This document shows positions 857 through 5,327 of a stretch of DNA of 64,000 nucleotides, in pieces. The position numbers and the translations under genes were made by a program. The DNA is from the human T2T-CHM13v2.0 reference genome, Homo sapiens, in the NCBI RefSeq assembly GCF_009914755.1, contig NC_060936.1. The stretch is one strand, 5' to 3'. Numbering within the stretch: the first letter of the stretch is position 1; each line of letters begins with the position of its first letter. The notes beneath the pieces were generated by a model. The model had not been told where the DNA came from and ran no database searches. It was given only the letters and a program-made list of their open reading frames with translations.

Positions 857-978
857 ATAGAGACAGGGTCTCCCTGTGTTGCCCAGGCTGGTCTCGAACT
901 CCTGGGCTCAAGAGATCCTCCTGTCTTGGCCTCGCAAAGTGCTAAGTAGGATTACAGGCGTTAGCCACCACACCCGGC
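857..978 (-). mobile_element. Alu monomer (FLAM/AluJ left arm)
   Basis: gagacagggtctc...ctcgaactcctgggctcaag...ccaccacacccggc. Confidence 0.85.
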
Positions 979-1450
979 TGTAAAAATGTACTTATTCTCC
1001 AGCCTCTTTTGTATAAACCATAGTAAGGGATGGGAGTAATGATGTTATCTGTGAAAATAGCCACCATTTACCCGTAAGACAAAACTTGTTAAAGCCTCCT
1101 GAGTCTAACCTAGATTACATCAGGCCCTTTTTCACACACAAAAAAATCCTTTATGGGATTTAATGGAATCTGTTGTTTCCCCCTAAGTTGAAAAACAACT
1201 CTAAGACACTTTAAAGTACCTTCTTGGCCTGGGTTACATGGTTCCCAGCCTAGGTTTCAGACTTTTGCTTAAGGCCAGTTTTAGAAACCCGTGAATTCAG
1301 AAAAGTTAATTCAGAAATTTGATAAACAGAATTGTTATTTAAAAACTAACTGGAAAGATTGTTAAGTTCTTTCTGAATTATTCAGAAATTATGCATCATT
1401 TTCCTTCAAGAATGACAGGGTCAGCATGTGGAATTCCAAGATACCTCTTG

Positions 1451-2762
1451 ACTTCCTCTCAAGCTCCGTGTTTGGTCAGTGGAGGCCCATCCGAGCTCAG
1501 CACTGAGAAGTGTTAGTTTCTTTGGGACCCATCTACCCTGACCACATCATGATGTTCATCTGCAGCTGTTGCAAGGTGTTCAGATTGTATAAACATAAAT
1601 GTCACAAAAACTTTAAAAGAAGTGCAATTCTCAAAAGGTTAGGTGGACTAAAGCATTCTGTAAAGCAACTGCTAATAATGAGCTTACAGTGGATTTGAAT
1701 TTGAAAAATATAGTAACAAGCCTGTCAAATATCTGCAAGAACTATGGAATAAAACTACTGATGCAGTGAAGACAGTTGAAAAGATCAAACAAATGCCAAG
1801 CTATATTTATAATGAACAAATTCAAGAAAAAGGACTACGGAAAGTTCAGGACATCAAAGAAGTCAGGCAAAACTCATCTTGACCCCTGTTGCAGGCAAAG
1901 GAACGCAGCTGGAAGAAAAGATGATATAACAGTTAACAGGATGCAGACATGGCAGAGGTTTCCTAAAAATCTCATTATCTATAACCATTTCTATATTTAC
2001 ATTTGAAAATCTCCTTTGGAGACTTAGAACCTCTAAATTATTGACTTATTTTTTATATAAGGTCACTCCGATGAAAGGTGATTACAAAATCATCTACATT
2101 GCTGTCTACAAAACAGATAATATGGATGTTTGATCGCATCTCATTGTTAACTCTTTACTGATATGTTTGTAAATACAGAAGTGAAATGTGGACATAAAAT
2201 AGTTACGCTATTTGGTTAATGGTACTAGACAACATGTAATTAATGACATTCAAAAATTTATGGCTAGTGATATATATAAAGTAAAATTTTCTTTGCAGTA
2301 AAATATGCCCTTTATTATAGAAGGGAGGATATAAGGAACCAACAGTTTGTATGAAAATAGCTCAAATAATATCTTTTATTTTGATTTTAATATTTCTTAT
2401 TTTGGTTTATTAGTGTCTTAGAACAAAATGGCCTTATATAATGAAGCCTAGTTATGCTGGACTGTTTTGATCTCTTTTAATTGTTCTGACAGATAGTTGG
2501 GGATGAGAGCCGAATAAGGTTTGCCTGAAATAACTGACACTATATAATTTCTGCTTTGGCAAATACTAAGTTCTAACTTGTCATTCCTGGTAGAACAAGC
2601 TTTATTTTTCGAGCCTAGCAATGATCTAGAAGCAGATGTTATCTCAGTGCCTTTTGCAATTTGTTGTGTGGGTTTTTTTTTTTTTAAAGCCACACAATAA
2701 TTTTGGAAAACAATGTATGGGTAGAACATGTGTCTGTTAATTGCACACAAAACCACTTTTAA
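1451..2762 (+). pseudogene. Processed pseudogene (retrocopy) of RSL24D1/RLP24: 5'UTR + decayed CDS (~1499-1966) + 3'UTR
   Basis: Across shifting frames the sequence reads [34 protein letters not shown] / [16 protein letters not shown] / EFEK..ELWNKTTDAVKTVEKIK / QAIFIMNKFKK / KVQDIKEVRQN / AGKGTQLEEKMI*Q, colinear with RSL24D1 ([57 protein letters not shown]...ELWNKTIDAMKRVEEIK...KVQDIKEVKQN...AGKGKQLEEKM). No introns, start codon lost, stops and frameshifts present. UTR extent is from recalled parent mRNA and is less certain than the CDS match. Confidence 0.9.
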
Positions 2763-2791
2763 TGGGTACAGAGTTAAATTTGAAGGAATAA

Positions 2792-2895
2792 GTTCTAGCT
2801 GAAGTATTATGAACTCCAAATAATGCTTTGAGGACCTCCAAAGGTAAAAGTACTAATCCCTTTGGCCATTTATTGAGAGAGAGAGAGAGAGAGAG
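2792..2895. repeat. Left arm of non-Alu inverted repeat (ends in (GA)n)
   Basis: Reverse complement matches 3278-3386 with only a few mismatches. Confidence 0.95.
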
Positions 2896-3050
2896 TAGGG
2901 TGACTATAGTTAATGTATTGAATGTTCTTGCTACAAATAAATGATATTTGAGCTGATGGGTGTGCTAATTACACTGATTTGATCAATACCCATTGTATGT
3001 GAAACAGTACATACACCATATTTACAATTATGTATTTAACATTTAAAATT
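2896..3050 (+). mobile_element. L1MA-like 3' end fragment (inside the inverted-repeat loop)
   Basis: agggtgactatagttaa...gctaattacactgatttgatc...tttacaattatgta resembles old L1M 3'UTR. Confidence 0.65.
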
Positions 3051-3277
3051 TCTAATATAAGTATCTCTCAAACTGTGGATTAACTTCTTGATTTATATTT
3101 AAATATGAATCTTAAGCAAAACAGTGAAAATAACCATCTTGATTTAGTGTTTTTCTCCCATATGTGAATTGTATATACTTAGGTGAGGACAATAAAATCA
3201 ACTGAACTGTAAGCTTAGAATAGGACTGAGGTAATTCTGCACAGCAACTTTACTAATGGTACATTGTTGCTTCAAAA

Positions 3278-3386
3278 CTCTCTCTCTCTCTCTCTGTCTG
3301 TCTCAATAAATGGCCAAAGGGATTAGTAGTTTACCTGTGGAGGTCCTCCAAGCATTATTTGGAGTTGATAATACTTCAGCTACAAC
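3278..3386. repeat. Right arm of non-Alu inverted repeat (starts with (CT)n)
   Basis: ctctc..caataaatggccaaagggattagta..tggaggtcctccaagcattatttggagttgataatacttcagctacaac. Confidence 0.95.
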
Positions 3387-3576
3387 CAAGCAGAATCTCT
3401 TTTTTTTGGAGGTCCTCGAAGCATTATTTGGAGTTGATAATACTTCAGCTTCAATTTGGAGTTGATAATATTTCAGCTAGAACCTAGTAGAATCTGTTTT
3501 TTTCCTTTGGAGGTCCTCAAAGCATTATTGGAGTTCATAATACTGAAGCTAGAACCAAGCAGAATCTGTTTTTTTC
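3338..3576 (+). repeat. Three ~70-nt tandem units (unit 2 has an internal ~24-nt duplication)
   Basis: tggaggtcctcNaagcattatt(t)ggagttNataatactNNagct..aaccNagNagaatctNttttttt starting at 3338, 3407 and 3508. Confidence 0.95.
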
Positions 3577-4341
3577 TGAGGAGTATCGGTAGCATAAATG
3601 TGATTATAAACATAGTACACTTGATATATGGAGGCAGTGACAGCTATTTTTACAAAATTTAAATCTGCAAATGGATTCAACATGTTTATGGGTTATTAAA
3701 ATTGTCTGATTTCTTAGGTTCTTTATAGTACACGTGTTGAAAATAAATGATTAAGAATTGTTTCAAGAATGCAATTATTTGATCTTAAATTTTTATGAGT
3801 TGTTAAAATAGAAATTATTTGAATATCATATATTTGGGTAACAAAAGGCACAAGTCTGAATGTGTTTCTTTTTCTGGAATGGCCATGCCTGCCCACTTTA
3901 GAAATACAAATATCACTGGGCAGCTTGAAGCAGTTGGGAGCCTCCAATGAGAGCAACTTGAGAGAATGATGTTGCAAGTTAGTAGGAGTAAGAAATGCTG
4001 TGTTCTCCCTGTCTTCTCTTAGGTCACATGGCAGCCTGGCCTAAGTGATCGTGAATGGTCTATAAGGGAGGTAGCTGGGACAGGGAGGGGAGTTTGGGCT
4101 AGCCACCGTACCACTTGTCAGCGTGAAAAGTAAGATTGTAATTGCCTGTTTAGTTTTCTGCCTCATCTTTGAAAGTTCCACCAAGCTGGGAACCTCTTGA
4201 TTGTGATGCACAAATGTAAGTACATCAGAAAAAAACAAAAAAACTGGCTTTAAAGCAGGAGCTTGTGGGCCCCTAAGCCAGACGGGGACTAGCTTTTGGC
4301 ATTATATAATTAAGATTTTTTAAATCCTTAATAAGGGTTTT

Positions 4342-4646
4342 ATTTTATTTTTATTTATTTTTTGAGACGGAGTCTTGCTCTGTGGCTCAGGCTGGAGTAC
4401 AGTGGTGCAATCTTGGCTCACTGCAACCTCTGCCTCCTGGCTGTGTTCAAGTGGTTCTGCTTCAGCCTCCCAAGTAGCTGGGGTTAGAGCACCCTGTCAC
4501 CACGCCCCGCTAATTTTTGTATTTCTAGCAGAGATGAAGTTTCACTATGTTGGCCAGGCTGGGCTCAAACTCCTGACCTCAAGTGATCTGCCCGCCTTGG
4601 CCCCCCAAAGTGCTGTGATTACAGGCGTGAGCCGCCACGCCCAGCC
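4342..4646 (-). mobile_element. Alu (AluS-like) with TSD TAATAAGGGTTTT
   Basis: Alu consensus; TSD at 4329-4341 and 4647-4659. Confidence 0.93.
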
Positions 4647-4996: not shown

Positions 4997-5327
4997 ACCG
5001 TAAAGCAAGCAGATGGGAGGCGTGTTCAGTAACTTATTCATAATGCATCTGAAATGATTGCTGTACTCAAATATTTAACGTTAGAGTAATAGTATTTTGA
5101 ATGAAAACCATAGTTGATTGTCTTTAGAGAGAGGAGTGGTACTGAAACATACTTGAATTCGTATTGCTTTCCTTTAAAGCTCTCCTTTAAAGACTTTAAA
5201 AAAAATTCGATAGGCATTTTCATGTTTCAGTCCTACAATCCCACATCTCTGCTGCCTTCAGAATGCTACAACTTAGATGTCCAGCCAACAGCTTAAAGCC
5301 AATTTATAAAAATAGCATCTTTCCTAA

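What the first reader, a model, noticed from the sequence alone, without database searches (positions are those of the whole stretch)
3338..3576. Triplicated miR-155 sites with one masking arm: candidate three-register RNA switch
Seen: the outer half of the right arm is repeated three times. Each unit contains AGCATTA (3351-3357, 3420-3426, 3521-3527), the 7mer-m8 match to miR-155-5p (seed UAAUGCU). The left arm carries the complement TAATGCT once (2821-2827). Its outer ~55 nt can pair with unit 1, 2 or 3; unit 3 matches at positions where unit 1 mismatches (cctttgg, ctcaaag, gttcata, ctagaac). Inference: only one site can be occluded and edited at a time, so register choice plus A-to-I editing sets the number of usable miR-155 sites and hence MDM2/p53 dose. 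Unit number could vary between species or individuals.
Basis: partly seen in the sequence, partly recalled or inferred. Interest (0 to 1): 0.85.

Follow-up and report, generated by a model that had tools for sequence, protein, structure and literature searches.

The report
Edited MDM2 hairpin with tripled miR-155 site
This stretch of the MDM2 3'UTR is one arm of a young, non-Alu inverted duplication that forms the long RNA hairpin already known to be edited by ADAR1; its outer half is present three times, each copy carrying a miR-155 seed match, but a working three-position switch is not shown.

Summary
AGCATTA sits at 3351, 3420 and 3521, and its complement at 2821. A left arm (2789-2895) pairs with 3278-3386 at about 93%, and the outer half of the right arm is repeated three times.

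Folding puts pairing of the left arm with unit 1 and with unit 3 within -3.0 to +0.6 kcal/mol of each other. Unit 2 is about 8-11 kcal/mol worse. Only the paired unit's site is occluded.

Much of the biology is already published. Eight of nine published editing coordinates I could map fall on A's in the left arm, the inner right arm and unit 1, including two A's of miR-155 site 1. The ADAR1/miR-155/MDM2 link is Jiang et al. 2019, which I saw only through reviews.

New here:
- Nine MDM2 retrocopies give an order of events: the seed match arose by a T>A change, then the unit was triplicated, then the inverted duplication made the left arm.
- A chrX retrocopy carries 7 A>G and 0 T>C changes confined to the left arm, inner right arm and unit 1. 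This looks like a fossil of an edited molecule in the unit-1 register.

Any register leaves two of three sites free. No evidence shows selection for switching.

The parts
2789..2895 (+). Left (5') arm of the hairpin. It is an inverted copy of 3278-3386. The outer part is 2790-2848 and the inner part is 2847-2895, including (GA)n at 2875-2895. It contains TAATGCT at 2821-2827.
   Evidence: I1, I3. It is absent from retrocopies L003, L004 and L008, where about 18 other bases lie, and present in L002. Published editing sites map to 2803, 2809, 2812 and 2852.
2803..2809 (+). AGTATTA, the miR-200b/c seed match whose first and last A are published editing sites (hg19 69237004 and 69237010).
2896..3277 (+). 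Hairpin loop. 2896-3058 is the 3' end of a high-copy interspersed repeat (L1-like by recall) with its A-tail remnant. 3059-3277 is older MDM2 3'UTR.
   Evidence: Many genome hits to 2916-3060. The old MDM2 pseudogene L013 lacks 1449-3058 but has 3059-3251.
3278..3332 (+). Inner right arm, including (CT)n at 3278-3304 and the AAAGGGA miR-204/211 seed match at 3316-3322.
   Evidence: I3. hg19 69237519 maps to window 3318, an A inside AAAGGGA.
3330..3398 (+). Unit 1, contiguous with the inner arm. miR-155 7mer-m8 match at 3351-3357.
   Evidence: Published editing maps to 3333, 3351 and 3357 (hg38 offset recalled). The fossil A>G in L002 is at 3354.
3399..3499 (+). Unit 2, with a miR-155 match at 3420-3426 and an internal 28-nt duplication (3428-3455 / 3456-3483).
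3500..3581 (+). Unit 3, with a miR-155 match at 3521-3527. It is the best thermodynamic partner of the left outer arm in the present sequence.
3742..3747 (+). AATAAA signal. Seven retrocopies end just after it; no RefSeq MDM2 transcript is annotated as ending here.
1452..2680 (+). RSL24D1 processed pseudogene inside the MDM2 3'UTR. This is context only: together with 2690-3058 it forms an insertion that is absent from the oldest MDM2 pseudogene.

Best explanation
The region is the 3' arm of a long, non-Alu RNA hairpin of about 107 bp in the common part of the MDM2 3'UTR. The MANE transcript ends at window 5123.

Origin. The hairpin was born when about 100 nt of the UTR (the CT-microsatellite, the inner arm and one repeat unit) were copied in inverted orientation about 490 nt upstream. 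The copy replaced about 18 nt. The junctions share 4 and 2 bases, which fits a replication template switch (inferred). A retrocopy that has three units but no left arm indicates that the copied unit had already been triplicated by tandem duplication. That unit had earlier gained a miR-155 seed match by one T>A change.

How it works. The hairpin is the ADAR1 substrate behind the published hyper-editing of MDM2. The duplex hides the seed matches for miR-200b/c, miR-204/211 and miR-155 that lie in it, and editing then alters them. Units that are not paired keep their miR-155 matches largely single-stranded. The hairpin can therefore blunt miR-155 repression only partly.

Registers. Unit 1 is made first and stacks on the inner arm, so it is the register formed during transcription. 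It is also the one recorded in vivo. Unit 3 is an equally stable alternative on paper. Exchange between them is possible but unshown.

Shown: anatomy, energies, mapping of published editing sites, and the order of events. Inferred: template switch, kinetic preference for unit 1, and partial relief of repression.
For: - Anatomy and fold: (z = -18.1).
- Location in the UTR: the stop codon is at window -571, and last exons end at 5009, 5123 or 10265.
- Published editing sites. With hg19 = window + 69,234,201, 7 of 8 hg19 positions fall on A's (2803, 2809, 2812, 2852, 3318, 3333, 3351). Two pairs lie inside the seed motifs named by the papers. One hg38 site maps to 3357 with a recalled offset.
- All 3 of 3 miR-155 7mer-m8 matches in the whole UTR (-570 to 10265) lie in the units. 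There are 0 8mers and 0 7mer-A1 matches.
- History. Three of 3 old retrocopies (L013, L014, L015) have one unit reading AGCTTTA. L004, L005 and L006 have one unit. L003 has three units and no left arm. L002 has three units, the 28-nt duplication and the left arm. Gap-free identity to MDM2 is 75.9% for L008 (the same chr18 place as L015), 91.2-93.4% for L003-L006, and 95.2% for L002.
- Fossil editing. L002 has a 7-nt target-site duplication and an A-tail. In it, 7 of 65 hairpin A's read G, against 6 of 275 elsewhere (Fisher p = 0.0045). A>G versus T>C is 7:0 (p = 0.008). There are 0 A>G changes in units 2 and 3. Controls L003 and L004 each show 1:1. L002's own lowest-energy fold pairs its left arm with its unit 1.
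- Transcript prefixes fold with unit 1 until position 3500, and with unit 3 from 3560.
Against: - The thermodynamic model puts about 48 of the left outer arm's base pairs on unit 3 and about 2 on unit 1 in the full-length RNA. If cells reach equilibrium, unit 3 and not unit 1 would be masked.
- Editing at 3351/3357 could also come from a short unit 1-unit 2 helix seen in the unit-3 fold.
- I found no data either way on editing in units 2 and 3. Supplementary site tables were closed, and Jiang 2019 was not held.
- The fossil is a single molecule and the test was framed after seeing the data.
- The relative order of L003 (three units) and L004 (one unit) is unresolved: 1-2 characters point each way. 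The triplication could have been polymorphic, or lost in L004.
- No AGO or reporter data were seen for the individual sites.
Confidence: 0.62

Rival explanations
1. The three units are a selected three-register switch. The left arm moves between units, ADAR1 edits each masked site in turn, and the number of surviving miR-155 sites sets the MDM2/p53 dose.
For: - Unit 1 and unit 3 registers are nearly equal in energy: u3 minus u1 is -3.0 to +0.6 kcal/mol over 7 parameter settings.
- Masking is exclusive: the paired unit's site is occluded and the others are not.
- The register formed first (unit 1) conflicts with the equilibrium register (unit 3).
- All miR-155 matches of the UTR lie in the units.
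- One possible compensatory pair: 2811 changed to G on the MDM2 lineage and now pairs with the C of unit 3.
Against: - Every register leaves two of three sites free.
- The triplication is present in a retrocopy that lacks the left arm (L003).
- The seed match is derived, not conserved.
- Unit 1's mismatches at 3337 and 3349 arose after the L002 split, which looks like plain decay.
- The fossil molecule carries edits only in the unit-1 register.
- Unit 2 is about 8-11 kcal/mol worse than units 1 and 3.
- No paper held mentions it (0 papers).
Confidence: 0.15
2. Neutral accident with no miR-155 role. The hairpin is just one more ADAR1 substrate, editing is a bystander, and the seed matches are ineffective where they lie, about 3.9 kb into a long UTR.
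For: - The sites are young.
- One match is roughly what composition predicts: 0.56 expected per 5.7 kb. The three copies arose by duplication.
- The motif is not enriched in the window.
- The arms are accumulating mismatches.
Against: - Reviews report that miR-155 lowers MDM2 and that an edited 3'UTR escapes it.
- A seven-site edited fragment raised reporter output by 60%.
- If the AATAAA at 3742 is used, the sites lie about 220-400 nt from the mRNA end, a favourable position (general knowledge).
Confidence: 0.18
3. The spare units act as internal competitors that shorten or loosen the perfect duplex. This would keep the hairpin below the threshold of dsRNA sensors such as MDA5 and PKR.
For: Competing partners of similar strength exist. 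Mismatches are accumulating in the arms.
Against: Pure inference. The triplication is seen in a retrocopy without the left arm. No sensor data were seen.
Confidence: 0.05

Closest known systems
ADAR1 editing of the MDM2 3'UTR that blocks miR-155 (Jiang et al., Cancer Cell 2019). The paper was not held; I saw it only through passages of reviews PMC6817451, PMC10243261, PMC13243261, PMC12187073 and PMC7043046.
   Same: Same gene, same miRNA and same enzyme. PMC6817451 describes a hyper-edited stretch of about 500 nt. That fits the span from the left arm to unit 1 (2803-3357).
   Different: None of the passages I saw mentions that the dsRNA is a non-Alu inverted duplication, that the miR-155 match is present three times, or that the left arm has alternative partners.
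Editing-sensitive miR-200b/c sites (PMC4793219) and miR-204/211 site (PMC13184275) in the MDM2 3'UTR. PMC12085317 describes 15 ADAR1-dependent sites.
   Same: These sites map onto the two arms of this same hairpin.
   Different: Those papers treat the sites one by one. PMC12085317 states that no Alu lies nearby and proposes recruitment through CSTF2. The inverted duplication explains the dsRNA directly.
Inverted Alu pairs in 3'UTRs, including the Alu cluster of the distal MDM2 3'UTR (bioRxiv 10.1101/2023.11.30.569399).
   Same: Long intramolecular dsRNA in a 3'UTR that ADAR1 edits.
   Different: This hairpin is not Alu-derived. It lies in the common (proximal) UTR. It arose by a local inverted duplication. 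One arm has three alternative partners.
Protein-driven 3'UTR structure switch that exposes miR-221/222 sites in CDKN1B/p27 (recalled from the literature, not looked up).
   Same: miRNA access is controlled by local RNA pairing.
   Different: There, a protein opens one hairpin. Here, alternative registers of a repeat are proposed, and no trigger is known.
Hairpins created by template-switch mutations, and retroelements that carry fixed A>G clusters from edited RNA (both recalled, not looked up).
   Same: An inverted local copy with short shared bases at the junctions. Sense-strand-only A>G changes in a retrocopy.
   Different: The copy here is about 100 nt long and sits about 490 nt from its source. 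The edited template was an mRNA 3'UTR and not a transposon.

Membership tests
Canonical miR-155-5p target site | Match to seed positions 2-8 (7mer-m8), using the seed given in the finding | tested here: met
   AGCATTA occurs three times. There are no 8mers and no 7mer-A1 matches in the UTR.
Canonical miR-155-5p target site | Evolutionary conservation of the site | tested here: not met
   Three of 3 old MDM2 retrocopies read AGCTTTA at this place. Orthologues in other species could not be read.
Canonical miR-155-5p target site | AGO binding and repression in cells | not testable with these tools
   I saw only review-level statements that miR-155 targets the MDM2 3'UTR. It is not known which of the three sites was tested.
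ADAR1 dsRNA substrate | Long, nearly perfect intramolecular duplex | tested here: met
   About 107 bp at about 93% pairing. Arm duplex energy is -165.4 kcal/mol. z = -18.1.
ADAR1 dsRNA substrate | Documented A-to-I sites on both strands of the duplex | tested here: met
   Published sites map to 2803, 2809, 2812 and 2852 on the left arm, and to 3318, 3333, 3351 and 3357 on the right arm. The mapping rests on an offset I derived. One further printed coordinate (69237512) maps to a T.
Multi-state RNA switch | Mutually exclusive structures of similar stability | tested here: met
   Unit 1 gives -299.0 and unit 3 gives -301.0 kcal/mol. The difference is -3.0 to +0.6 over 7 settings. This is in silico only.
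Multi-state RNA switch | Both states populated in cells, with a trigger | not testable with these tools
   No probing data are available. The fossil retrocopy and the published sites fit unit 1 only.
Multi-state RNA switch | Selection keeping each alternative helix (covariation) | tested here: inconclusive
   Only paralogous retrocopies were available. One candidate compensatory pair exists (2811 with unit 3). Against it stand two recent helix-breaking changes in unit 1 and three defects in unit 3.
Tandem repeat with variable copy number | Head-to-tail units whose number differs between genomes | tested here: inconclusive
   The units are head-to-tail. Retrocopies show one unit or three. Variation between people or species was not testable.
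Transposon terminal inverted repeats (my first guess) | Many genomic copies with both arms and target-site duplications | tested here: not met
   Only one other locus (L002) has both arms, and it is a retrocopy of this UTR.

The most novel reading that the evidence does not exclude
The hairpin is a kinetic-versus-thermodynamic device. It forms on unit 1 during transcription and later migrates to the equally stable unit 3. ADAR1 would then erase miR-155 sites one after another as an mRNA ages or as ADAR1 rises, making MDM2's escape from miR-155 graded and time-dependent. Human-lineage changes in unit 1 and at 2811 would have tuned this balance recently.
Probability: 0.15. Interest if true: 0.75.

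Novelty: new variant of a known kind. Interest (0 to 1): 0.5.

Why it matters
MDM2 sets p53 activity, and editing of its 3'UTR is used as a cancer biomarker and proposed as a drug rationale. A 2025 study could not explain why ADAR1 edits this Alu-free region. The inverted duplication explains it.

The three copies of the miR-155 match mean that editing one site cannot abolish targeting. This bears on how the published model should be read and tested.

The retrocopies give a dated order of events without other genomes. One of them appears to preserve an edited mRNA molecule from an ancestral germline.

Tried and rejected
- Transposon idea. My first guess was a DNA transposon or MITE with terminal inverted repeats. 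I rejected it because no family of two-armed copies exists.
- L1 subfamily idea. I then thought the other loci were members of a small L1 subfamily sharing this 3' end. I rejected that for three reasons. L010 (chr11) covers window 862-3752, including unique UTR and the RSL24D1 pseudogene. L011 shares Alu-flanked UTR. L013 is a spliced MDM2 pseudogene reaching at least 3720. So these loci are 5'-truncated MDM2 retrocopies.
- Tandem Repeats Finder found only the two microsatellites and unrelated short arrays, not the units.
- Rfam, with permissive E-value thresholds, found nothing in the hairpin. There were two sub-threshold miRNA-like hits, at 2653-2709 and 4384-4442.
- Order of L003 and L004. 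Shared derived states did not resolve it. Five of the 12 characters grouping MDM2 with L002 fall in left-arm columns aligned against unrelated bases, and should be discounted.
- Literature on the registers. Searches returned 0 papers, and one search returned nothing relevant. One search, looking for edited retrocopies, returned nothing usable.
- The soft-mask table lists no repeat of 100 bases or more between 983 and 4305. My 'L1-like' label for 2690-3058 therefore rests on the many genome hits and on recall.
- Not available here: other primate genomes, pangenomes, editing databases, CLIP data and supplementary tables.

Full report
**What is there**

The window's first 10 kb is the last exon of MDM2. 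The stop codon lies at window -571. RefSeq transcripts end at 5009, 5123 (MANE) or 10265, so the finding lies in the common part of the 3'UTR.

AGCATTA is at 3351, 3420 and 3521 on the + strand, and its complement at 2821. A left arm (2789-2895) is the inverted complement of 3278-3386, seen as two segments of 57 nt at 93% and 49 nt at 94%.

The outer half of the right arm recurs with spacings of 69 and 101 nt. Unit 2 holds an additional 28-nt internal duplication.

The heptamer is not enriched in the window: 10 matches against 12.5 expected. All 3 of the 7mer-m8 matches in the whole UTR lie in these units. There are no 8mers or 7mer-A1 matches, and 0.56 matches are expected per 5.7 kb. So this is one chance site that was amplified by duplication.

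**Structure**

The 811-nt stretch folds at -295.1 kcal/mol against -185.4 +/- 6.1 for 20 shuffles (z = -18.1).

| Partner of the left outer arm | Whole-structure energy | Duplex energy |
|---|---|---|
| Unit 1 | -299.0 | -83.6 |
| Unit 2 | -289.6 to -291.3 | -81.8 |
| Unit 3 | -301.0 | -86.7 |
| No unit allowed | -252.1 | n/a |

The lowest-energy structure pairs the left outer arm with unit 3. The model ensemble puts about 48 base pairs on unit 3 and about 2 on unit 1.

The unit 3 minus unit 1 difference ranges from -3.0 to +0.6 kcal/mol over seven parameter settings. That is within model error.

Whichever unit is paired has its seed match fully occluded (unpaired probability 0.00-0.01). The other two are 0.26-0.74 unpaired. 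Prefixes of the transcript fold with unit 1 until position 3500 and switch to unit 3 only once it is present, at 3560.

One correction is needed: every register masks one site and leaves two, so register choice alone cannot set the number of usable sites.

**What is already known**

I derived hg19 = window + 69,234,201 from the miR-200b/c site described in PMC4793219 (figure legend passage). I then checked it against other papers, reading passages only.

| Published coordinate | Window position | Base | Location | Source |
|---|---|---|---|---|
| hg19 69237004, 69237010 | 2803, 2809 | A, A | The two end A's of AGTATTA in the left arm | |
| hg19 69237013, 69237053 | 2812, 2852 | A, A | Left arm | PMC12085317, |
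| hg19 69237519 | 3318 | A | Inside AAAGGGA, the miR-204/211 match | PMC13184275, |
| hg19 69237534 | 3333 | A | Junction of the inner arm and unit 1 | PMC4341880, |
| hg19 69237552 | 3351 | A | First A of miR-155 site 1 | PMC8798912, |
| hg38 68843778 | 3357 (recalled offset) | A | Last A of miR-155 site 1 | PMC13671454, |
| hg19 69237512 | 3311 | T | Printed once, in a Methods section | |

Seven of the 8 hg19 positions fall on A's.

Reviews state that ADAR1 editing of the MDM2 3'UTR prevents miR-155 binding, and that MDM2 is hyper-edited within about 500 nt. The primary paper, Jiang et al. 2019, was not held.

PMC12085317 found no Alu near its 15 sites and proposed protein recruitment instead. 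The inverted duplication explains the dsRNA directly.

Rfam has no family here. My searches found no paper on the triplication or on registers (0 papers; nothing relevant).

**History from retrocopies**

A genome search found other copies of this stretch. Seven of them end just after the AATAAA at 3742 and continue into A-rich sequence. L003 and L002 have target-site duplications.

These copies are 5'-truncated MDM2 retrocopies and not a repeat family:
- L010 (chr11) spans window 862-3752.
- L013 (chr2:22.2 Mb, annotated as an MDM2 pseudogene) is spliced. It lacks 1449-3058.

That missing block is an RSL24D1 processed pseudogene (1452-2680) followed by a high-copy repeat 3' end, L1-like by recall (about 2690-3058).

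| Retrocopy | Gap-free identity to MDM2 | Units | Left arm |
|---|---|---|---|
| L008 (chr18; L015 is the same place) | 75.9% | 1 | absent |
| L003 | 91.2% | 3 | absent |
| L005 | 92.1% | 1 | region not covered |
| L004 | 93.2% | 1 | absent |
| L006 | 93.4% | 1 | region not covered |
| L002 (chrX) | 95.2% | 3, plus the 28-nt duplication | present |

The states seen are:
- Three of 3 old copies (L013, L014, L015) have one unit reading AGCTTTA, so they have no miR-155 match.
- L004, L005 and L006 have one unit. It reads AGCATTA in L004 and L006, and the motif is altered in L005.
- L003 has three units and no left arm.
- L002 has three units, the 28-nt duplication and the left arm.

Shared derived states group MDM2 with L002: 12 characters, of which 5 are unreliable. 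They also group MDM2, L002, L003 and L004 against L005 and L006 (5-7 characters). L003 and L004 are not ordered relative to each other.

The order of events is therefore:
1. The seed match arose by a T>A change.
2. The unit was triplicated.
3. The inverted duplication made the left arm.

The left arm replaces about 18 nt and shares 4 and 2 bases with its junctions. This fits a template switch (inferred).

One passage reports over 90% 3'UTR similarity for catarrhines and 80-90% for platyrrhines. With that, I infer that the hairpin arose on the catarrhine or ape stem. I could not check this in primate genomes.

**A fossil of editing**

L002 differs from MDM2 at 7 of 65 A's in the hairpin (left arm, inner right arm and unit 1), all of them A>G. 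The positions are 2812, 2813, 2822, 2868, 3308, 3328 and 3354.

- Elsewhere, 6 of 275 A's differ in this way (one-sided Fisher p = 0.0045).
- The hairpin has no T>C change (7:0, p = 0.008).
- Units 2 and 3 have no A>G change.
- The controls without a left arm, L003 and L004, each show 1 A>G and 1 T>C in the same columns.

Position 2812 is a published modern editing site. Position 3354 lies inside miR-155 site 1. L002's own lowest-energy fold pairs its left arm with its unit 1 in a 53-bp run.

I read this as a retrocopy of an ADAR-edited MDM2 mRNA in the unit-1 register. It is one molecule, and the test was framed after I saw the pattern.

**Why unit 3 now fits better**

- Of unit 1's four mismatches, 3337 (T>G) and 3349 (A>C) arose on the MDM2 lineage after L002 split.
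- The mismatch near the unit's end predates L002.
- Position 2811 differs in both lineages.
- Unit 3 has its own defects.

This looks like ordinary decay with one possibly compensatory change. It does not look like design.

**Verdict**

The thing is the known ADAR1-edited hairpin of the MDM2 3'UTR. Its anatomy (non-Alu inverted duplication, tripled partner, tripled miR-155 match) and its history seem not to have been described in the papers I could search.

The three-register switch remains an untested possibility. I rate it at about 0.15.

Noticed in passing
window 1452-2680: An RSL24D1 processed pseudogene lies inside the MDM2 3'UTR. About 15-20 other genomic copies match it at 74-77%, and the exons of the parent gene on chr15 match piecewise.
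   Followed up: partly
L010 = chr11:74413001-74423000 (LOC107984356): RefSeq calls this locus a transcribed RLP24 pseudogene. It is in fact a retrocopy of about 2.9 kb of MDM2 3'UTR (window 862-3752, 92%) that carries the RSL24D1 pseudogene nested inside it.
   Followed up: partly
L002/L012 = chrX:63276717-63277526: An unannotated MDM2 3'UTR retrocopy with a 7-nt target-site duplication and an A-tail. It carries sense-strand A>G changes confined to the hairpin, apparently a fossil of ADAR editing.
   Followed up: yes
window 3742-3747: An AATAAA after which 7 MDM2 retrocopies of very different ages end. No RefSeq MDM2 transcript ends here. If it is used today, the miR-155 matches would lie about 220-400 nt from the mRNA end.
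   Followed up: partly
window 3543-3546 (unit 3): A 4-nt stretch reads as the reverse complement of the same place in units 1 and 2 (a tiny inversion or a double substitution). It is shared with L002 and absent from L003.
   Followed up: no
window 1449/3058: The oldest MDM2 pseudogene (L013, chr2:22.2 Mb) joins window 1448 directly to 3059. So the RSL24D1 pseudogene and the repeat 3' end entered as one block, possibly as a chimeric retrocopy.
   Followed up: partly
window 3311: The coordinate chr12:69237512, printed once in the Methods of PMC13184275, maps to a T. The site studied throughout that paper (69237519) maps to an A. The first is probably a misprint.
   Followed up: no
window 1776-1908, minus strand: The terminal exon of non-coding CPM transcripts overlaps the MDM2 3'UTR in antisense, inside the RSL24D1 pseudogene. 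The hairpin lies in the intron of those transcripts.
   Followed up: no
window 4384-4442: A sub-threshold Rfam match to mir-3135 (41.9 bits against a gathering score of 80) lies in a masked repeat.
   Followed up: no
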